Assembly (NCBI RefSeq): GCF_009834535.1
Contig: NC_045696.1
Coordinates: 60,886,001 to 60,950,000 of the forward strand
Direction of reading: 5' to 3'
Length of the DNA stretch: 64,000 bases
Source: Camelus ferus
Lineage: Eukaryota
Under the pieces are notes generated by a model. That model saw nothing but the letters and a program-made list of their open reading frames with translations, did not search any database and was not told the DNA's origin. Positions 29,850 to 64,000 of the stretch are shown here, one piece after another (positions within the stretch are counted from its first letter, which is position 1; each line of letters starts with the position of its first letter). The position numbers and the translations under genes are program-made.

Positions 29850-31385
29850 ATGTAAAACAGAAATCAAAACCCACAAACCAATCAAAAAAAGAACTCAAAA
29901 CACAGGCAATACACAGGGAAACTCTGAAAAACTAGAATTGTTGTCTCTAATTTCAGAGAGATAAGATTCTAAATTACTGAAACAAGGAAGGAATTTTTTT
30001 TTTAAATCAGAGAAAAACAAAGGTTCTTATACATGAAAAATATGATGGTGGAAATTAAAAATTCAGAAGAATGGTTAGAATATAAACAGTTGGAACTGTT
30101 TACCACCCGGTAAAACAAAATGACAAAGAAATGAACAATAAACAAGTAAGAAAACCATAGGGTCAATTAAAGAGGTTCAATAACCAATTTATAAAAATTA
30201 TAAAGAGAAAACAGAAATAAGAACACAGGAAATTATCAAAATGAGATATAAGACAATTTTGCAGAATGAAAGATGTGATTCTCTGGTTTAGAAATAAACC
30301 CATCAAGTATATAGCATATTGAATTAAAACAACTCAGGAGGGGAGGGTATAGTTCAAGTGGTAGAGCGCATGCTTAGCAAGCACAAGGTTCTGGGTTCAA
30401 TCCCCAGTACCTCCATCAAAAAACATAAATAAGTAAATAAACCTAATTACCTCCTCCCCTCTAAAAAGATGTTTGAAAAAACAAAAACAACTAATATTAT
30501 GGCACATCATCATAAACTGCAGAGTGGTAAAAAAAAAGGAAGGATCTTAAAATCTTCCAGAGAGAAAAAAAATTGGTCACAAACAGTGGACTAGAATTAG
30601 GAATGGCATCAAATTTTCAACCATTAATTTTTAAAATGAAGAGCTAAAAGTGAAAAAACACTTGAAAATCCTAAGAGAAAAAATCATTTTCAACCTAGAA
30701 TCTATAACCAAATTATTAATCAAGGGTAAGCACAGAACAGAGATACTTCTTTTTAAGTGAAGTCTCAGGAAATGTTTTCCTATAACATGTTCTTAGGAAA
30801 CCATAGAAAATGCCCTCCAGCAAAACAAGGAAGTAAAGTAAGAAAGAAGAATTATTTGTCAGTTATACCTCAATAACTGAAAGTTTTTTAAAAAGTAAGA
30901 AAGAAGAAGACATGAAATCCAGGAATAAGAGTATTTAGCACAGAAGAAAGCAGGCTAGGCTGCAATAACAGAGAACAACCAGTCCAGACTGGAAGAGAAG
31001 GAAAAAAGACTCAATGAGGGAGCTATTCAGGGGTAAAAAAATGATAAAAAATAATCTGGTTTGACTAATAAGGCTGCTGGGAAAAGAGGGAGGAAGTAGC
31101 CACTGGTACAAAAACCAAGTAAATTTTTTAAAAAGGGAGGAATTATTAACTCTAGAAAAACAACAACAAAAACAAGATGAACAGTTGATAAATCCAATAC
31201 ATCATTTAGAAATATGTCTGTAAATACCAGTGGAAAGAGTCAAAGAAGTTGAAGGTATATGCTATTGGCCACTGAAACTGGGGACGGGGAATGGTTGAGG
31301 CAGGGGAATGCTATTATGTACTTTAAGCTTTTTATTATTATTTGACTTTTTGAATAATGTATTTCAGAAAAATTAAAATTTAAAA
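29850..31385 (+). mobile_element. Very degenerate L1/HAL1 ORF1-like relic
   Basis: A-rich, with ORF1-like motifs (TTCAACCTAGAATCTATAACCAAATTATTAATCAAG); boundaries approximate. Confidence 0.5.
30337..30480 (+). mobile_element. tRNA-Ala-derived SINE (camelid Vic-1-like)
   Basis: A-box TAGTTCAAGTGG, AGC anticodon-like loop, B-box GGTTCAATCC, AT-rich tail ending AACCTAATTACCTCC; flanking repeat AAAACAACT at 30326-30334 and 30484-30492. Confidence 0.85.
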
Positions 31386-40389: not shown

Positions 40390-43300
40390 CTGAACTTTCT
40401 AAAAGTAGATGCATGCTTTAGGTGTGTATTCTTTTGTGAACTTCATTCAACATTCGAGTTTCATTCATGTAGCTGCATACTGCAATAGTTCTTTCATACT
40501 ATTCTTCATATGCCTTCACAGTATTCTACTATATTAACGTGCTATAATTTATTCACTTATTCTACTTCTGATGAACATTTTGACTGTGCACTGATCTAGG
40601 AGTGAAAATGCTGTGTAATAAGATATATGCATCTTCAACTTCAAGAGAGAATGCTAAACTGTTTCCCAAAAAGATGGTACCAATTTACATATCCACCAGC
40701 AATGTACAAGGAGTTTTTGTGGCCTCATATCCTTGCTAATACTTGTTGCTGAGATGTTTTAATATGTCTATTATGTTTTAAAGATTTTTTATAGTGGCAT
40801 TTCATTGGGATTTTAATTTTAATTTCCCTGATTATTAATGAGGTACAATAGCTTTTCATATGTTTATTGGCCATCTAGATTTCCTTTTCTGTGTAGTACC
40901 TACTCAAGTCTTTTGGTTTGTTGGAGGTCCTTACAAATTCTGAATATGAGAACGTTGTCAGCTATGTTACAAGTACCTTCTCCAATTCTGTAATTTGAAG
41001 TTTCAGAGTCTTTGTGGTGTCTTCTGAAGAAAGTCTTTAATTTTAATAGAGCAAAAAATTTTATTAATACTTTTCTTTATGGTTAATGGTTTTTACAGTT
41101 TTAAAAGAAATCCTTCCCTACTCCAAGGTCATAAAGATACTCTCTTCTAAAAGTTTTATAGTCTAACCATCACATTTAACCTCCTCAGAATTTATTTTCT
41201 AGTATGACATGAGATAGGAGACCAATTTCATTTCTTCCTACAGGGATACCCTATTAATCCTGTGACAGTTATTGAAAAGACCATCTTCCCCTTACCCCAA
41301 CTATTTCCCTATAACATCTCTGTCATATATCACAGCCTGTTTGGGAGCTCTCTAATTTAATCCATTGCACTACTTGTCTGTCCTTAAGTCAATATTACAC
41401 AATCTTAATTACTATAGCTTTATAATAATTCTTGACATTGCAAACTGACTACACTTCAATAAATAAATAATAATAATTCTTGAAAACTACCAGAGTGTTG
41501 TACTCCTACATTACTACTAGTAGAAGAGGGATCCCTTCCTCTTTGAAGTTCTTCAAGGTGTCTTGGCGTTCCAGGCCTTTTGCATTTCTTTGTAAGTTTC
41601 AGAATGAGCTTGTTATATATCATAAAACACTTGTTTGAATTTTTACTGAGATTGCACTGAATCAAATATCACTTTGGGAAAAAAGACCGTATTTACTTGA
41701 TTTATTCCCAGGTCTTTATTATTTTATACATGATAGATATTTAACCATTAGTTACTCACAGAACTAAAACTGATTTTAATATACTGACTTTGTACCTGGC
41801 ATCTTTGGTGAATCTTTTTATCAGTTTACAAAATTTATCTGTAGATCCTTCTGGATAGCTCTAGATCCAATATTACATAGTTCTGTGAACAGTGAAGGTT
41901 TATTTCTTCCTTTCTGCTATATATTTATTTATTTTTCTCTCTTACAGTGCTGGCTAGGACCCATAGCACAATGTTGAATAAAAACAGTAATTGTTCCTAA
42001 TATCAAAGGTTTTCTATAGATATCCTTTAAATATTAAGGAAATTCTTTCTAGTTCTAGTTTGCTATGAGCTTTTATCAGTAACAAATACTGAATTTAATC
42101 AATCTCTTTTTCTCCATCTATTGAGATGATTACAGGATTTTTTAATTTTATTATACTGATATGGAATTAATTTTACTCTTTATTCCACTATTCTTTCATT
42201 TCATTAGTATAGAATTAACTTTTGTCCTCATTAAAACTTTATTTTATTAGATATTAAATTTCTTTTTTTCCTTTTTTTAATAGAAGTATAATCAGTTTAC
42301 AATGTTGTGTCAATTTTAGTGTACAGCACAATGCTTCAGTCATACATGAATATACATATATTCATTTTCATATTCTTATTTTCTAAAGTTAAATCTTGTA
42401 TTCCTGACATAAACTAAATTTAGCCATGATATATTATTCTTTATATTAGCTAGATTCAGTTCATTAATATTTGTTTCAAGATTTTTGTATATATAATCAT
42501 GAATGAGTTTGGACCATTTTCTTTTCTCATACTAAATTTGTCAGGGTTTGATACCAAGGTTGTACTAGTCTCATAATATTTAGTTTGGGGGCATTCCCTC
42601 TTCTATTGACTGAAAGGATTTATATAGATATCTAATAACTTCACTAGTGATGCCATCTGGGCCTGGAGTTTTCCTTGAAGGAAGATTTTTCACTACTGAT
42701 TGAATTTCCTTAATATTGATAAGACTATTTAGGTTTTATATGTATCTTCTTTAAAAAATATTATTAATTAATTTATTTTTTGTCCAGGGGGGTAATTAGG
42801 TTTATTTATTTACTTATTTATTTTAATGGAGGTACTGGGGATTGAACCCAGGACCTTATGCATGTTAAGCATGCCCTGTACCACTGGGCTATACCCTTCC
42901 TTATATATATCTTCTTGAACCAGTTTTATTATAGTCTAGGAGTTTGCTATTTTTATCAGAATTTTCAATTTTATTACTGTAAAGTTGTTCATAATAGCTT
43001 CTTTAATTTTTTTTAAATGTTTACAGCATCTGTGGGGATCTCTCTATATTTTCATTTCTGACTTTGTTTTTTGTACCTTCTTTCTCTCTTGATCAATCTC
43101 ATCAAAGGACTGAAAATAACATTAGTGTTTTCAAAGTATCTGGCTTCGCTAACCCTATTCATTACTGTATAGTTTCTATTTTGTTAGTTTCTGTTCTTAT
43201 CTTTATCATTTTCCTTCTATTGGGGGGAGAGGTGGTATTATTCTTTTCCTAATTTATTGAGATGCTTAGCCCATTAATTTTCAGACTTCTTTCTTTCTAA

Positions 43301-46609: not shown

Positions 46610-48456
46610 TTCTGGTCAAGATGGTAGGACCACAAGCTTGCCTCTCCTGGCGACTAAAACAAAACCACAACTGAATGCTAAACAACCATTGAAAAAAGAC
46701 TGGAACCTAGCAAAAAAGATCTTCTCCGACTGGAAACACAGAGGGAACCACAGCAAGACGGCAGAAGGGGCCTGCTCAAGATATAATTGGGCCCCATACC
46801 CCTTGGGTGGGCGACTCACAGATGAAGATTTGTTAAGTCACAGAGGCCCTCCCACAGAAGTGAGAGCTCTAAGCCCCATGTCAGGCTCCCCAGCTTGGGT
46901 TCTGGCATTGGGAAGAGAAGGAGACCCCAGGATGCTTGGCTCTGAGAGCCTCCCAGGACTGGGGGAAACAGAGACTCCATTCGCTTGGGAAGCATAAATG
47001 CAAACTCATGAGCACCAGGTCCAAGGGCAGAGGCAGTGATTTCATAGGAACATGGGCCAGACCCGCCTGCTGGATTTGGAGGGTCTTCTGGGGACATGGG
47101 GGGCGGCTGCAGCTCACTCAAGGGACATAAAAGCTGGTGGCAGAAATTCCGCGAGTGTTAATCTACACGAGCTTTCCTGGAGGCTGATACCTTGATTGGA
47201 TCATTAGCACCAAGATCTAGTCCCACCCAACAGCCTGTAGGGAAGCCTCAGGCCAAACAACATACAGGGTGGGAACACAGCCACACCCATTAGCAGACTT
47301 CCTAAGCCACAAAGGCCTCTAGACACAGCCCTACCCACCAGAGGTCCAGGGCCAAGCTTCTCCCAGCAGTGGGCAGGCACTGGCTCCTCCTGCCAGGAAA
47401 CCTGCATAAGCCTCTAGTCCAGCCTCATCCACCAGGGGCAGATACTAGAAACAAGAAAACAACAATCCCAAAGCCTATGGAAGGAATCCACAAACACATA
47501 GAAAGATAGAAAATATGAGGCAGCAAAGGAATATCTCCCAGGCCAAAGCATAAGATAAAATCCCAGAAGAAGAAATAAGTGATGAGGAGATAGGCAACTT
47601 ATCTGAGAAAGAGTTTAAAGTAATGATGACCAAGATGTTCAGAGAACTCAAGAGGAGTATAGATGCACAGAGTGAAGTTTTTAGCAAAGAGTTGGAAAAT
47701 ATAAAGAATACCCAGGGTTGAAGAATAAAATCACTGAAATGAACAAAACACTTGAAGGAACCAAGAGGCAGAAGAACGGATCAGTGAGCTAGAAGACAGT
47801 TTAGTGGAAATCACTACTTCAGAACATAAAAAATAAAAAAGAATTAAAAGAAATGAGGATAATTCAAGAAAACTCTGGGAAAACATGAAACACACTAATA
47901 TTTGCATTACAGGGGTCCCAGAAAGAGAAGAGAGAGAAAGAACCTGAGAAAATTTTTGGAGAGATAATAACTGAAAACTTCCCCAACTTGGGAAAGGAAA
48001 CAGTCACCCAAGTCCAGGAAGTGCAGAGAGTACTACACAGAATCAACCCAAAGAGGAAGACACGAAGGCACCTAGTCATCAAATTGCCAACAATTAAGGA
48101 TAAGGAGAAAATATTAAAATTAGCAAGAGAAAAGCAACGAATAACATACAAGGGAACTCCCATAAGGTTATCAGCTGATTTTTCAGCAGAAACTCTACAG
48201 GCCAGAAGGGAGTGGCAAGATACATTTAAAGTGATGAAAGGGGAAAACTTAACAAGCAAGAATACACTATCCAGCAAGGCTCTCATTCAGATTTGATGGA
48301 GAAATCAAAAGCTTCACAGATAAACAAAAGCTAAAAGATTTCAGCACCACCAAACCAGCTTTACAACAAATGTTAAAGTAACTTCTCTAGTCATAAAACC
48401 GTAAGAAAAGAGAATAAAAAGAAGAGAGAAAAAGAAAAAAAGAGAGACCTACAAAA
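46610..48456 (+). mobile_element. LINE-1 5' portion: 5'UTR plus disrupted ORF1 (47515-48390), ending in the inter-ORF spacer
   Basis: CAAGATGG YY1-type start; GC-richer UTR; ORF1p C-terminal motifs (RINPKRKTRRHLVIKL, ITYKGTPIRLSADFSAETLQARREW) with stops and frameshifts. Confidence 0.92.
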
Positions 48457-48970
48457 GATTGCTTTGGCTGTTCAGGGTCTTTTGTGGTTCCTTACAAATT
48501 TTGGAATTGTTTGTTCTAGCTCTGTGAGGAATGTCATGAGTATTTTGATGGGGGTTGCATTGGATCTGTGGATTGCTTTGGGTAGTGTGGCCATTTTGAT
48601 AGTGCCGATTCTTCCAATCCAACAGTGCAAGAAATCTTTCCATTTCTTTGTGTCATTTTGGTTTTCAGAGTATAGGTAACCTCCTTGGTTAAGTTTATTT
48701 CTAGGTATTTTGTTGTTTTTGATGTAATGGAAATGTCTCTGCCAGTTATAAATTCCGGTTTTTGAAGTGAAAAAAAAAAAGTGAATGAATGGCTGCAAAT
48801 GGCAAAATATCCTTCTTTTTCTGGGTGAGTTGTATTCCATTACATATATTTATATATGCTGCATCTTCATTATCTATTCAACTATTGATGTACACTTAGG
48901 ATGCTTCCTTATCTTGGCAATTATAAATAATGTTGCTGTTAATAGCAGGGTATATGTATCTTTTGGAATT
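48455..48970 (-). mobile_element. Two inverted L1 ORF2 fragments (about 48455-48730 and 48790-48970)
   Basis: Minus-strand peptide KKWKDFLHCWIGRIGTIKMATLPKAIHRSNATPIKI is homologous to the ORF2 peptide at 61159-61515; second piece resembles the ORF2 C-terminus. Confidence 0.88.
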
Positions 48971-51130: not shown

Positions 51131-51530
51131 GAAGAGCATCTAATGGATTTAACTCACCATAAATACACGTGGCTATCTGTAGTGAAACATGTTAGCTGAA
51201 GTTACAAAATATGTGACAACAAAGATCACTAAATATTAATTTTAAAGATGAGAAAAGGGGTATATGTATTTACATACACGTACATATTTATTTTCCTGTA
51301 ACTTCCCATTTAATTTTTCTCCCCTTACTTATTTTTTGGTATCATTCAATACACTACATTTTTCCTTTTCCAATACCGCAGAGAAAGCAAAATACGTTAA
51401 CTAGCTTAAAAGACCATCTTTGCTCACAAAGAAAAGAACATGAACTTCTGCCTCGAATGGATTTTGGTTTCATATAACACTGGAAAACAAGCTCAATTTC
51501 TGAGTTTATAAATACCATCCTTAAAACTGA

Positions 51531-52230
51531 TCCTTTTGGCCGGAACCACCATCTTCCAGGAGTGGTAGTTCTGCCCTTGGATGATCTAAAACAATCAAAA
51601 CTATTGTTTTGACATTTTGGGAAACAAAGTGAAGAATTCAACTCTAAAAGCCTATAGGTGAATTTCTAGATAAATAATTTGACAAAATGACCAACATAAA
51701 GGGAAGAGGAGAGGCACCCGCTACATGTTCTCTAGGCCTTTTAGAAAACATGGAGTTCTTCCTTTGGTCACATACATGCGAATCTGTAAGAAAGATGATA
51801 TTGTAGACATCAAGGGACTAGGTACTGTTCAAAAAGGAATGCCCCACAAATGTTGCCACCGCAAAACTGTAAGAGTCTACAGTGTTACCAAGCATGCTGT
51901 TGGCATTATTGTAAACAATGAAGGGCAAGATTCTTGCCAGGAGAATTAATATGCATTGAGTATATTAAGCACTCTAAGAGCTGAGATAGCTCCCTGAAAT
52001 GAGTGAAGGAAAGTGATCAGAAAAAGGAAGCCAAAGAGAAAGGTACGTGGGTTCAGCTGAACCACCAGCCTGCTTCACCCAGAGAAGCACACTTCATGAG
52101 AACCAATGCAAAGGAACCTGAACTGTTGGAACCCGAACTGTTGGAACCCATTCCCTATGAATTCATGGCATGATGGTGTAAAGAAAATAAAAGAGCTGGA
52201 CTATGAACAAAAAAGGCAAAAAAAAAAAAA
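51531..52230 (+). pseudogene. RPL21: Processed pseudogene of ribosomal protein L21 (eL21), antisense within LRCH3 intron 1
   Basis: 5'UTR-like TCCTTTTGGCCGGAACCACCATCTTCCAG; CDS remnant 51687-52173 (MTNIKG...[12 protein letters not shown]...EPIPYEFMA*) is intronless with frameshifts and in-frame TGA; AATAAA at 52186-52191; A-tail to 52230; TT|AAAA just upstream. Confidence 0.95.
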
Positions 52231-54204
52231 CAACCAAAACCCTGTGATTCAATTCTCACAGTATTTTCTCTCATCTTGAAATGTGGCTGATTATAACCTT
52301 GCCAATAAAGAGTCTTCAAAACCATACCCTCAAACAATGCAATTTACAGAAAAACTATTATCTTAAATGAGACAAATGATAGAGCCAGGTTTTAGTCCCA
52401 GCTCTACCATTTATTACCATCTTAATCTCTAAAGCATTTCAGAATCTCCCTTTCTAGCACTTTCAGTGAGATTTTTTCAATTATTTTACTTTTTCTGCAG
52501 GCAGGAAGCCTGCTAAGAGGTACTTTTTCCTACGTCTTTCTTTCTCTTTAACTATTTAATAACTTAATGATTTTATGAATTAGGAGTAGTTGAGTCCTAC
52601 TTTCATGGGACAAACCCAGAGCCCAAAGACAACAGTAACGTGGCTTCTGACACCTGAAAAAAAGTTCTTTGGAAACATTTATTTAATTGACGTGGCATTT
52701 TTCTCTCAGCTAATTTTCTAACTTTCAATTTCTCTTTGAGACTGTGAAGGTCACAAGGTCCAGAAAAAGAATATAATAATCATGATATACAGAATATAAC
52801 ATGATATTGCTCACTTCTCTTAAGTTGGCAAAAGGAAAAACCTTAACTCTTTATAATACAAAAACTTGTTAATAATATAATTTCATAAGTTAAATCTCTT
52901 ACAAGAAAATAACTATAAATATCTAAGAAGTGATTCAATATTTAGTTCAACAAATTCCCTCTTTGCTCTTAAAGAAGTCTGCTCAATTTTGCCCCTTCTT
53001 TCAGTCACACTGTTGTTGCAACCACCATTCTTGATTCTTTCCAGCGTTGTGGGAAGCCCACTTCTTTTTTCTTAGACCAGTGTCTGACTTTTATAAGGTA
53101 CCTGAGATAATTTCCTTCGACCCACCAGATCTAATTCATACTTTCTTCTGCCCCTCTATTCTTCTCTCTATTCTCATGTGAGCTATCAGAAGAAATAATG
53201 CAGTGACATTTCTGTTCAAAGGAACCACCTATTTGAATCATGCCCAAAATAATTTAAATTCAGTCGAACCAATTAATACAAATATTCTGGATTTAAACTT
53301 AAGTTTTCTACATCACAATAGGTCAACTTGAACTTCTCTGATTCTATATATTCTGAATATTTCTAGCTCTTATGCATGAGCAGGTTACCTAAAGCACAAA
53401 GGGAAAAGGGACCAAATCTCTCATTTAAAAAATAGATTTTTTAGCCATTGTGGAATGCTTACTATCATAAACATATGTATGTGTGTGTATATATATATAT
53501 TAAGACATTTTTCAGGGCGTTTGCTCAGCTCACAATGTTCTTAATTTCTCTCTCTCATTCACAGGGGCTGGCTTTCCTTCCCTCCCAGCTTTTCAGAGTC
53601 ATATATACCAGTGATTTTTAACCTTGAGGACCCTCTCAAAGGAAGTAACACTAAACTCTGTGGCTCCACGCAGTCTTGATGCCCTGGGAAACTCCTGTTT
53701 CTCCTTTAAGAGCCATCTCAAGCATAATCTCATTATACTTCCTTGAATGGTCTAGGCACTCAAATGATTCCTTGGCTGTGTTTCTCTTACTTTAGTGTAG
53801 CAATTATCACATGGTAACTCTTCATTAGATTTTAAGTTCCTTGAGACCAAGAGCTTTGTGTCTTTAGCATCTAACACAATACCTGACTTATTAAAAGGTC
53901 AAGTTTATTTGCTAGAATTAAGTTAATTCAGTGTGCCAACACTGGATATTTCATGCTGATCAACTCAGTGTTAGTTGTTTTTAAATTAAAAATTGGAAAA
54001 TTATTTCTGAATAAACTAAGTTTACTTGGTCGGTAATTAATTAATTTTTAAAATGTGGGCTTCATGAAGGGAATCACAAGAAAAGATCCTTAGCAGCAGC
54101 AGAGGAAATGTAGGAGACATACAGACCAAGCCAGATTATACCCACACCACCACCAACCGTCTGCAACATGAATTATAAATAAAATGGGTAAATCAATTTA
54201 TATC

Positions 54205-54278: not shown

Positions 54279-55280
54279 TCCTAAAATTCAACAAGAAAAT
54301 AAACAACTCTATTAAAAAATGGGCAAAGAACTTGAATAGACAGTTTTCCAAAGAAGGAGGAGGGTATAGCTCAATGGCAGAGTGCCTGCTTAGCATGCAT
54401 GAGATCCTGGGTTCAATCCCTGGTACCTCCATTAAAAAATAAATAAATCAACCTAATTACCACCCTCTCCTCCCAAAAAACCAAGCTGCAAAACGCACAC
54501 AAATAGTCAAAAAGCACATGAAAAACACTCAACATCGCTAATCATTAAGGAAATGCAAATCAAAACCACAATGAGATATCACTTCATATAAAGCAGGATG
54601 GCCTTCATTAAAAACAAAAGCCAGAAAATAACAAGAGTTGGTGAGGATACAGAATAACTGGAACCCCTGTGCATTGCTGGTGAGAATGCAAAATGGTACA
54701 ACTGCTGTAGAAAACATAAGAGTAGTTTTTCAAAAATTAAACATGAAGTTATGTTTATGATCCAGCAATTACACTTCTGAATATATACCCAAAAGAACTG
54801 AAAGCAAGGACTCAAACAGGCATTTGTTTACCAGTACTATGGCTACATTGTTCATACTAGACAAAAGGTGGAAACAACCCAAATGTCCATTAACAGATGA
54901 ATGGATAAACAAAATGTAGTATATGCATACAATAAAGTAATATTCAGCCCTAAAAAGTAATTAGAAATTCTGATACATGCTACAGCATGGATGAACCTTA
55001 AAAACATTGTCCTAAGTGAAACAAACAAGACACAAATACTGTATGATTCCACCTAATGAGGTACCTACAATAGAGACAGAAAGTAGAATGGTTACCAGGG
55101 ATAGAAGGAAGAGGTATTGGTGAATTGTTGTTTAATAGATATAGTTTCAGTTTGGGATGATGAAAAAGTTTTGGAGATGGATATAGTGGTGATGGCTGCA
55201 CAACAATGTAAATGTACTCAAAACTACTGAGAAGGGCACTTTAAAATGATTAAAGTGGTAAATTTTATGTTACAAATATT
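54275..55280 (+). mobile_element. L1M (L1MB-like) 3' portion
   Basis: GGAAATGCAAATCAAAACCACAATGAGATATCAC...GATGGCTGCACAACAATGTAAATGTACTCAA. Confidence 0.82.
54356..54480 (+). mobile_element. tRNA-Ala-derived SINE (Vic-1-like) nested in an older L1
   Basis: Same head and tail as the other three copies. Confidence 0.85.
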
Positions 55281-60754: not shown

Positions 60755-62975
60755 CATAGTACTCAACAGTGAAAAATTCAAAAGCTTCCCACTAAAATCT
60801 AGGACAAGGCTGCCCACTATCACCACTCCTATTCAACACAGTCTTAGAAGTCCTAGCCACAGCAATCAGGCAAGAGAGAGAAATAAAAGGGATCCAAATT
60901 GGAAAAGAAGAGATAAAAGTGTCACTATATGCAGATGACATGATACTATATATAGGAAATCCTAAAAGGTCCACACAAAAACTACTAGAAATAATCTAAG
61001 AATTCAGCAAGGTAGCAGGTTACAAGATTAATGTACAAAAATCAGTTGCATTTCTTTACACTAATGATGAATCAACAGGAAAAGAAAGTAAAGCAACAAT
61101 CCCCTTTAAAATAGCACCCAAAGTAATAAAGTACCTAGGAATAAATCTAACCAACGAGGTGAAAGACTTATACATGGAGAACTATAAAACACTGATTAAG
61201 GAAATTAAAGAAGACTTTAAAAAATGGAAAGATATCCCATGCTCCTTGATTGGAAGAATCAGTATTGTTAAAATGGTCATACTGCCCAAGGCAATCTACA
61301 GATTTAATGCAATCCCTATCAAATTACCCAGGATATATTTCACAGAATTAGAACAAATCATAATAAAATTTATATGGAACCAAAAAAGGCCTAGAATTGC
61401 CAAAATATTACTGAAGAAAAAGAAAGAGGCTGGAGGAATAACTATCCCAGACTTCAGACAATATTACAGAGCTACAGTAATCAAAATAGCATGGTATTGG
61501 TACAAAGACATATAGACCAATGGAACAGAATAGAGAGCCCAGAAATGAACCCACAAACTTTTGGTCAACTAATCTTCGACAAAGGAGGCAAGAATATACA
61601 ATGGAGTAAAGACAGTCCCTTCAGCAAATGGTGTTGGGAAAACTGGACAGCAGCACATAAATCAATGAAGCTAGAACACTCCATACACCATACACAAAAA
61701 TAAACTCAAAATGGATCAAAGACTTAAACATAAGACAAGATACAAAAACCTCCTAGAAGAAAATATAGACAAAACATTATCTCACATACATCTCAAAAAT
61801 GCTCTCCTAGGGCAGTCTACCCAAGAAATAGAAATAAAAGCAAGAATAAACAAATGGGACCTAATTAAACTTACCAGCTTCTACACAGCAAAGGAAACCA
61901 TAAGTAAAACAAAATGACAACCTACGGAATGGGAGAAAAGTTTTGCAAATCATGAAACCGACAAAGACTTGATCTCCAGAATATATAAGCAGCTCATACA
62001 ACTTAATAAGAAAAAAACAAACAACCCAATCCAAAACTGGGCAGAAGACCTAAACAAGCAATTCTCCAAGGAAGAAATACAAATGATCAATAGGCACATG
62101 GAAAAATGCTCAATATCACTAATTATCAGAGAAATGCAAAACAAAACTACAGTCAGATATCACCTCACACCAGTCAGAATGGCCATCATTCAAAAGTCCA
62201 CAAACGACAAATGCTGGAGAGGCTGTGGAGAAAAGGGAACCCTCCTACATTGCTGGTGGGAATGCAGTTTGGTGCAGCCACTGTGGAAAACAGTATGGAG
62301 ATTCCTCAAAAGACTAGGAATAGACTTACCATATGACCCAGGAATCCTGCCCTTAGCATATATCCAGAAGGAACCCTACTTCAAAATGACATCTGCACCC
62401 CAATGTTCATAGCAGCACTATTTACAATAGCCAAGATTTGGAAACAGCCTAAATGTCCATCGACAGAGGACTGGATAAAGAAGATGTGGCATATTTATAC
62501 AATGGAATATTATTCAGCCATAAAAAAGACACAATGGAATATTATTCAGCCATTAAAAATGACAACATAATGCCATTTGCAGCAACATGGGTGTCCCTGG
62601 AGAATGTCATTCTAAGTGAAGTAAGCCAGAAAAAGAAAGAAGAAAAAAAGAACATAAATACAAACCAGAAACAGACTCATAGACAAAGAATACAAACTTG
62701 TGGTTGCCAAGGGGGAAAGGGGTGGGAAGGGATAGACTGCGAGTTCAAAATTTGTAGATACTGACAGGCATATGCAGAATAGATAAACAAGATTATACTG
62801 TATAGCACAGGGAAATATATACAAGATCTTGTGGTAGCTCACAGCAAAAAAAAAAAATGTGACAATGAATACTTATATGTTCATGTATAACTGAAAACTT
62901 GTGCTGTACACTGGAATTTGACACAACATTGTAAAATGACCATAACTCAATAAAAAAAAGTTTAAAAAAAAAGAA
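60755..62975 (+). mobile_element. Relatively young 5'-truncated L1 (ORF2 RT to C-terminus, 3'UTR, A-tail)
   Basis: [11 protein letters not shown] and YADD RT motifs; many supplied ORFs (61159-62764) are ORF2 pieces broken by frameshifts. Confidence 0.95.
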
Positions 62976-64000
62976 AAGAATTTCTTCAGAAATTTTAAAA
63001 GAGATCCTTAAAATGATAATCCAAAAATTCAAAGTAAAACAAAATGTTTAAAATACAATAAGGAGAAAATAAATCATACATACAAAAAAATAACTTCAAC
63101 AAAAGCTCTGGGAAAACATGATACCAACTACCAGTAATAACCAATCAACCACCTTTATCTTCTATATTGGAGGGGGACATGCACGTTTGGAACCACAGCA
63201 GTACAATATATCAATTTAATCTTGTTATATATATTTTATGACTCCATAATGATATGTAAAACAAGACAGAAACAATTGAAGGAATTTTGCAACAAACTGG
63301 AATTGGTTTATTTTAGATTCAAAAATCATACTTCGAAAAGCTCTCTATTTTTAAAAGCTATATTCATGCTTAGAACAGTGCCTGAGACATAGGCACAAAA
63401 TATAATTTTACTAAATAAATAACTAAATAAATAAATAACAATAAGGCATTGAAGTAAGCAGGAGAAAGAAAAGAAAGGAGAAAATAAACGAAGCTAAGTT
63501 TTACACATAAGCATGGGAACATTTGTTAATTGTTCCATATGGCTACAATCTTGTTCAATCAACAAAATGTCCTTATGAGGTAGGCACTGTGCACATGAGG
63601 AAACTACCATTTAGGAAGGTTAGGAAACATGCCTTGGGGTCACACAAAGTTAGTAAGTGACTGAACTGAAATTCAAATCTAGATTTCTCTGAATTCAAAG
63701 CCCATGCATAAATATACTTACACAAAACACTATTATACTATAAATTATTATTTTTAAATGCTGAAAAACAGGTACATGATTAACAGGCAGCTCCACTATC
63801 CCAGTAAAAATCAGGATTTTTAAAGATACTATTTAATACTGATATTATACAGCATCATTAAATTATTCTTCAGATAGAGACTCTTACTAAATGTTATCTT
63901 TAAGATTCATAGGAATTATAGGCTATATAACTACGGTATACTTGTATCCTGCTATGTTAATAGACTGGACTTTCCTTCACATCTTAAAACATAGAAAGGC

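What the first reader, a model, noticed from the sequence alone, without database searches (positions are those of the whole stretch)
51560..51674. RPL21 retrocopy carries a 115-nt insert at the 5'UTR exon1/exon2 junction: possible fossil of an alternative exon
Seen: CCTTTTGGCCGGAACCACCATCTTCCAG (to 51559) and TAATTTGACAAA-ATG (51675-51689) are separated by 115 nt that have no poly(A), no flanking duplication and no GT...AG ends. Recalled knowledge: in canonical RPL21 mRNA, ...CATCTTCCAG and TAATTCGCCAAAATG are contiguous and this is the first splice junction. Inference: the retrotransposed mRNA included an extra cassette exon from RPL21 intron 1, so the pseudogene records an isoform that may be unannotated or extinct. 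The insert contains a minimal uORF, ATG-ATC-TAA (51581-51589), which could dampen translation of this TOP-type mRNA.
Basis: partly seen in the sequence, partly recalled or inferred. Interest (0 to 1): 0.72.

Follow-up and report, generated by a model that had tools for sequence, protein, structure and literature searches.

The report
Retrocopy fossil of hidden RPL21 exon
A dead, reverse-transcribed copy of the ribosomal protein gene RPL21 in a camel genome carries an extra 115-base piece whose source elsewhere in the genome is bounded by splice signals, so it likely records an old, probably rare splice form of RPL21, a known kind of fossil with no function shown.

Summary
An RPL21 processed pseudogene (51532-52230, +) lies antisense in LRCH3 intron 1 and carries 115 nt (51560-51674) between its 5' leader and the 12 nt before the ATG. 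In 4 of 4 sequencing runs laid, exactly one contig aligned, only over 51562-51674, at about 88% identity. It is a second genomic copy of the insert. It continues with GTTAAGT right after 51674 and has AG acceptors 15 and 2 nt before 51562. The insert is therefore a spliced exon of 113 or 126 nt, not a transposon. That its source is RPL21 intron 1 is inferred, not shown. The donor resembles the known shifted-register U1 class (7 versus 4 pairs) but is weak. No spliced junction was seen in RNA contigs. The uORF is in the retrocopy, but 88% of local 115-nt blocks hold an ATG and its state in the source is untested. RPL21 has 113 human retrocopies, so capture of a roughly 1% isoform is expected. 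Verdict: a real new example of a known phenomenon; regulatory function unsupported.

The parts
51532..52230 (+). RPL21 processed pseudogene, from the pyrimidine-rich 5' end to the poly(A) tail, antisense within LRCH3 intron 1
51532..51559 (+). RPL21 5' leader (exon 1 by recall), beginning with a TOP-like pyrimidine run and ending CCAG
   Evidence: sequence; exon identity recalled, not tested
51560..51674 (+). Insert: copy of a cassette exon. Its source elsewhere in the genome is about 88% identical over 51562-51674, has AG before and GTTAAGT after, and is 126 or 113 nt long depending on the acceptor used
   Evidence: tables 7 and 8
51581..51589 (+). Minimal uORF ATG-ATC-TAA in weak context; presence in the source exon untested
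   Evidence: one search lists only 4 of 10 substitutions, none within 30 nt of the ends
51675..51686 (+). 12-nt 5'UTR part before the ATG (start of exon 2 by recall); begins with TAA in frame with the ATG, so the insert cannot extend the protein
   Evidence: sequence
51687..52173 (+). Disabled intronless RPL21 coding sequence: 155 codons aligned, 25 amino-acid changes including 2 stops, 3 frameshifting deletions, one 3-nt deletion, 15-nt tandem duplication at 52120-52149
52186..52230 (+). AATAAA signal (52186-52191) and decayed poly(A) tail (52206-52230)
51521..51531 (+). TT|AAAA L1 endonuclease-like site and 5' arm of a candidate degenerate target-site duplication (51523-51531)
   Evidence: L1 cut consensus recalled; the automatic TSD scan found nothing convincing without gaps
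52236..52248 (+). 3' arm of the candidate target-site duplication; matches the 5' arm only with a 4-nt gap
   Evidence: by eye

Best explanation
The insert is a copy of a genomic segment bounded by AG and GT, so it is a spliced cassette exon, likely from RPL21 intron 1, that was likely included in a rare mRNA which L1 machinery would have reverse-transcribed into LRCH3 intron 1. Shown: the retrocopy anatomy, the paralogous source, and the splice dinucleotides at its ends. Inferred: the source is RPL21 intron 1. Inferred: the spliceosome used a weak donor (GTTAAGT) that U1 would read in the +1 shifted register, giving low inclusion. Inferred: because RPL21 is retrocopied very often, one copy sampled this minor form, roughly 30-40 million years ago. 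I commit to leaky, low-level inclusion without a selected function. Such an mRNA would encode normal eL21 behind a 5'UTR about 113-126 nt longer.
For:: 4 of 4 runs laid (4 of 24 listed, 4 studies; X1 and X3 are flagged as possible sources of this DNA) each gave one contig aligned only over 51562-51674, with 10 substitutions and 4 gap letters, and identical loose ends: GTTAAGTCC.. behind 51674 and ..TTTGCCTTGTGATAGGAGTAGTTGCCAGCT before 51562. The retrocopy insert starts GAGT, as does the sequence after TGATAG. Chance of GT exactly at the 3' end and AG in register at the 5' end is about 0.003 from window dinucleotide frequencies. GT[CT]AAGT follows only 20 of 6402 GT sites in the window (pattern chosen after seeing the site). 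U1 pairing is 7 in the +1 register versus 4 canonical, like the shifted model oligo ACA/GUCAAGU in PMC4856993 Table 2. Three of four contigs end 779, 780 and 786 nt behind the donor if record coordinates are the record's own, as expected at a multi-copy exon 2. The RNA contig X15 is 2177 nt, close to my recalled length of about 2.2 kb for human intron 1. Human RPL21 has 113 processed pseudogenes (PMC4298173); at 1% inclusion the chance of at least one capture among 113 is 0.68. The retrocopy lost bases at 4 places in its coding part, so a 13-nt loss at the insert start is in character.
Against: No contig linked the source to an RPL21 exon. X3 runs 2584 nt upstream yet no exon-1 piece was reported (28 nt may be too short to seed). 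No joints were listed in any run (table 5), and the contigs of X15 and X18 run unspliced through both boundaries. The 5' boundary is not clean: it needs a 13-nt loss or two adjacent substitutions. The donor is weak: 24% of 2000 random GT sites bind U1 as well or better, and 9.75% have 7 or more pairs in the shifted register. A shared contig end could be any repeat, and under the other reading of the coordinates only two contigs share an end. The exon1/exon2 junction itself is recalled.
Confidence: 0.72

Rival explanations
1. Same origin, but the exon is a regulated and selected 5'UTR switch. Its inclusion adds a uORF and distance behind the TOP motif, lowering RPL21 translation.
For: RPL21 has several 5'UTR isoforms with different translation efficiency in mouse and human (PMC9957725) and alternative first exons in rat (PMC6825209). 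Both splice dinucleotides survive in the living source. Insert-to-source divergence (10 of 111) is below the 15.8 expected if both copies drifted neutrally (P = 0.085) and near the 7.9 expected if the source were frozen.
Against: The divergence test is not significant and rests on a rough rate. The ATG has weak context and is at chance level. Its presence in the source is untested. No spliced junction appeared in two RNA-type runs. The passages read on RPL21 isoforms concern start-site and first-exon choice, not an internal cassette.
Confidence: 0.15
2. The piece is an exon of another gene, joined between the RPL21 parts by trans-splicing or by template switching during reverse transcription.
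For: The source's link to RPL21 was not shown. The source has CCAG two bases before the aligned start, the same four letters that end the leader, which could serve as microhomology for a switch.
Against: It needs two independent events, in and out, both landing on splice dinucleotides and at the recalled RPL21 junction. The 3' join is exactly at the GT with no loss from either side.
Confidence: 0.07
3. The insert is a transposon fragment or a piece of unrelated DNA that entered the retrocopy after it was made (DNA-level insertion or repair patch).
For: No repeat library was available, so an ancient, highly decayed element cannot be excluded as the ultimate origin of the exon. A filter hides human-like contigs, so copy number is a lower bound.
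Against: Only one contig per whole run aligned at 80% or more in 4 of 4 runs. No second copy in the window. No poly(A) or duplication. A DNA-level insertion has no reason to end at AG and GT of its source.
Confidence: 0.03

Closest known systems
Processed pseudogenes as fossils of alternative transcripts (Shemesh et al. 2006, PNAS, PMC1360558; not held, seen only as cited in PMC4772013 and PMC5470649)
   Same: A retrocopy carries an extra segment at an exon junction that matches a splice-bounded piece of genomic DNA, so it archives an isoform.
   Different: Here the case is in a camel, in the RPL21 5'UTR, and the donor is of the atypical GTTAAGT type. Whether this exon is in that paper's list could not be checked.
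RPL21/Rpl21 5'UTR isoforms (PMC9957725, mouse and human; PMC6825209, rat)
   Same: Same gene, same protein, different 5'UTRs, with TOP-containing and TOP-less forms.
   Different: The passages read describe start-site windows, alternative first exons and four human isoforms. None describes an internal AT-rich cassette.
Atypical 5' splice sites read by U1 in the +1 shifted register (Roca and Krainer 2009, seen as cited; PMC4856993 Table 2; PMC11162779)
   Same: The donor AAA/GUUAAGU looks like the consensus with one base inserted after +2 and pairs better shifted (7) than canonically (4).
   Different: It lacks the +8 and +9 matches of the model oligo (-3.9 versus -6.5 kcal/mol), so it is weaker. 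The last three exon bases are taken from the retrocopy. No experiment.

Membership tests
Processed pseudogene (L1-made retrocopy) | Coding sequence of the parent without introns | tested here: met
   155 of 160 codons align contiguously over 51687-52173
Processed pseudogene (L1-made retrocopy) | Poly(A) tail behind a polyadenylation signal | tested here: met
   AATAAA 52186-52191, A-rich tail 52206-52230
Processed pseudogene (L1-made retrocopy) | Target-site duplication | tested here: inconclusive
   No clean ungapped pair; a candidate with a 4-nt gap and a TT|AAAA site
Processed pseudogene (L1-made retrocopy) | Disabling mutations | tested here: met
   2 stops and 3 frameshifts
Cassette exon of RPL21 | Source segment preceded by AG | tested here: met
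   AG 15 nt and 2 nt before 51562 in the source; which was used is unresolved
Cassette exon of RPL21 | Source segment followed by GT | tested here: met
   GTTAAGT directly behind 51674 in 4 of 4 runs
Cassette exon of RPL21 | Source lies in the parent gene between the two flanking exons | tested here: inconclusive
   Contig geometry fits but no exon-linked contig was seen; no genome held
Cassette exon of RPL21 | Insert sits at an authentic exon-exon junction of the parent | not testable with these tools
   Recalled only; searches gave no RPL21 leader sequence
Cassette exon of RPL21 | Junction reads in present-day RNA | tested here: inconclusive
   No joints in X15 or X18; contigs drop rare variants and human-like records are filtered
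Shifted-register atypical 5' splice site | More U1 pairs in the +1 register than in the canonical one | tested here: met
   7 versus 4; about 10% of random GT sites also reach 7
Shifted-register atypical 5' splice site | Rescue by suppressor U1 in the shifted register only | not testable with these tools
   needs a minigene experiment
Transposable element insertion | Many genomic copies, terminal repeats or poly(A), target-site duplication | tested here: not met
   One contig per run at 80% or more (with filter caveat); no hallmarks; no repeat library available

The most novel reading that the evidence does not exclude
RPL21 intron 1 holds an unannotated, conserved 5'UTR cassette exon gated by an atypical shifted-register U1 donor. 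Its regulated inclusion puts a start-stop uORF behind the TOP motif and tunes eL21 output, for example in the germline, and this retrocopy dates the switch to tens of millions of years ago.
Probability: 0.12. Interest if true: 0.6.

Novelty: new member of a known kind. Interest (0 to 1): 0.36.

Why it matters
It is a clean case of a pseudogene archiving an isoform, with the source exon found and both splice sites still in place. It gives a specific, cheap target: look for this exon in camel and other mammalian RPL21 transcripts. It also suggests that an atypical GTTAAGT donor was in use in the germline long ago, a class that standard predictors underrate (PMC11162779). If the exon proved conserved and regulated, it would add a splicing layer to TOP-mRNA control of a ribosomal protein. 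On present evidence it is more likely splicing noise caught by a gene that is retrocopied very often.

Tried and rejected
No whole genome is held for this window, so the source could not be mapped. A metagenome scan for leader, gap of 100-130 nt and exon-2 start found 0 matches. Scans for the leader end alone gave 8 metagenome and 1 viral loci; 9 of 9 lack RPL21 flanks and are chance matches. Rfam: no family over the insert at gathering score, and 6 weak matches (E 0.27-8.3) in 51450-51800 are chance, so the snoRNA idea was dropped. A local origin for the insert was rejected. An N-terminal protein extension from the insert was rejected: none of 36 RPL21 relatives matched its translations above chance, and TAA precedes the ATG in frame. 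The selection test on the source exon was inconclusive. RNA-labelled runs that hold the stretch (3 on record) are no evidence of retrocopy transcription: it lies in an LRCH3 intron and the runs may contain DNA. The absence of joints and of the retrocopy's own contig reflects filters and proves nothing. The contig depth of 137 in X18 was not used. The Atlas search of an LRCH3 exon gave nothing. Paper searches showed no description of an RPL21 intron-1 cassette; PMC4309852 (a GAPDH primer), PMC11604662, PMC2687790 and PMC3478165 did not bear on the exon. Shemesh 2006 is not held.

Full report
Observation. A 28-nt leader (51532-51559) ends CCAG, 115 nt follow (51560-51674, 33% GC), and TAATTTGACAAA-ATG starts at 51675. 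The coding part is RPL21: residues from 51707 match PDB eL21 chains at E 1e-36. A frameshift-aware alignment to stored camel RPL21 proteins matched 155 of 160 codons, with 25 amino-acid changes including 2 stops, 3 frameshifting deletions, one 3-nt deletion and a 15-nt tandem duplication. AATAAA and an A-rich tail follow. A target-site duplication is only a candidate, with a 4-nt gap, next to a TT|AAAA site.

Setting. LRCH3 exons for residues 86-543 lie on the minus strand between 37613 and 1361, and exon 1 is not in the window. The retrocopy therefore lies antisense in LRCH3 intron 1. Of four protein models compared, the Camelus ferus one fits best. Three organism labels hold the 401-nt stretch, most with all sampled words, which fits closely related camels. 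About 26 non-synonymous changes on 365 sites give 0.07 per site. At a recalled neutral rate near 2e-9 per site per year this is roughly 30-40 million years; the date is an inference.

The decisive call. No genome was held, so I laid contigs of 4 of the 24 listed runs (X1, X3, X15, X18; 4 studies; X1 and X3 may be the source of this DNA; X15 is RNA on record, X18 RNA by guess) on 51300-51700 at 80% likeness. In 4 of 4 runs exactly one contig was laid. It covered 51562-51674 and nothing else, with 10 substitutions and 4 gap letters, about 88% identity. The loose ends were the same in all four: TTTGCCTTGTGATAGGAGTAGTTGCCAGCT before 51562 and GTTAAGTCCTGCTTACTAGTTAGCACCTTC behind 51674. So the insert has a second genomic copy whose flanks are not RPL21 exons. 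A GT starts exactly where the retrocopy returns to RPL21. At the 5' side there are two in-register acceptors. TGATAG|GAGT matches the insert's first four bases and needs a 13-nt loss in the retrocopy (exon 126 nt). CCAG|CT needs two adjacent substitutions (exon 113 nt). The first has the better pyrimidine tract and the retrocopy is deletion-prone, so I prefer it, but the data do not decide. The chance of GT and in-register AG together is about 0.003. The retrocopy's own contig was not shown because human-like records are filtered. Other retrocopies with the insert would be hidden in the same way, so 'one copy' is a lower bound.

Is the source RPL21 intron 1? This is inferred. Three contigs end 779, 780 and 786 nt behind the donor and the fourth at 571, if coordinates are the record's own, as expected where the assembly graph branches at a multi-copy exon 2. 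The X15 contig is 2177 nt, near my recalled 2.2 kb for the human intron. Against: no exon-1 piece was reported on X3, which runs 2584 nt upstream; any repeat could cause a shared end; and no call confirmed the junction.

The donor. AAA/GUUAAGU pairs with the U1 5' end at 4 positions canonically and 7 in the +1 register. It resembles the shifted model oligo ACA/GUCAAGUAU in PMC4856993 Table 2 (passages). PMC11162779 (passages) says such sites look like the consensus with one base inserted, that about 1.5% of human donors use non-canonical registers, and that MaxEntScan underrates them. GT[CT]AAGT follows 20 of 6402 GT sites in the window, though I chose that pattern after seeing the site. The site is still weak: 24% of 2000 random GT sites bind as well or better, and 9.75% reach 7 shifted pairs. 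The last three exon bases come from the retrocopy.

Is it used today, and is it functional? Not shown. No joints were listed, and the X15 and X18 contigs pass unspliced through both boundaries; contigs drop rare forms, so this only hints at low inclusion. The uORF at 51581-51589 has T at -3 and A at +4, and 88% of 115-nt blocks of the window hold an ATG. One search lists only 4 of the 10 substitutions and none within 30 nt of the ends, so the source may lack this ATG. Ten substitutions in 111 nt lie between 7.9 (source frozen) and 15.8 (both neutral; P = 0.085), which is inconclusive. Human RPL21 has 113 processed pseudogenes (PMC4298173, passages). With that many draws a 1% isoform is captured with probability 0.68 and a 0.1% isoform with 0.11; the camel count was not measured. 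No special function is needed to explain the fossil.

Mechanism. Shown: retrocopy, paralogous source, AG and GT at its ends. Inferred: a germline RPL21 pre-mRNA was spliced leader to cassette to exon 2 through a weak, shifted-register donor; L1 machinery copied this near-full-length mRNA into LRCH3 intron 1; the copy then decayed. I give 0.72 to leaky inclusion from intron 1, 0.15 to a regulated exon of the same origin, 0.07 to an exon of another gene and 0.03 to a DNA-level insertion.

Comparison with what is known. Retrocopies as archives of transcript isoforms are established: PMC4772013 (passages) cites Shemesh 2006 for it; that paper is not held and I saw only its citation, also in PMC5470649. 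RPL21 5'UTR isoforms are described in PMC9957725 (abstract, passages, section 11, two supplement PDFs searched) and PMC6825209 (passages); the passages concern start sites and first exons. PMC9311317 (passages) reviews U1 registers. Searches listed no paper on an RPL21 intron-1 cassette. RefSeq and Ensembl transcripts, figures, and subscription papers with their supplements could not be seen, so the exon may already be annotated. Two earlier notes of this scan report the same kind of fossil for other genes, which shows the kind recurs; look-ups gave nothing.

Verdict. Observation confirmed; interpretation partly supported; new member of a known kind; interest 0.36.

Noticed in passing
window 37613-1361, minus strand: LRCH3 coding exons for residues 86-543; exon 1 lies beyond the window, so intron 1 is over 26 kb.
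   Followed up: partly
window 52120-52149: Exact 15-nt tandem duplication in the retrocopy coding part; the two units are identical, so it is likely younger than most of the decay.
   Followed up: no
protein P0027: A Camelus ferus gene model fuses RPL21 residues 1-133 to RASL11A. The two genes are neighbours by recall, so this is probably a prediction artefact at the parent locus or a read-through.
   Followed up: no
window 30343-30415, 42827-42898, 54360-54431: Three tRNA-like Rfam hits are heads of a tRNA-derived SINE with several copies in the window; probably the camelid Vic-1 type (name recalled).
   Followed up: no
window 47475-48849 and 61000-62976: Decayed L1 ORF1 and ORF2 fragments on the plus strand (identity recalled from the translations).
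   Followed up: no
source contig, 15 nt before window 51562: The upstream acceptor reads TAG GAG TAG, a tandem acceptor, with a further CAG 13 nt downstream, so the source exon could have several 5' ends.
   Followed up: no
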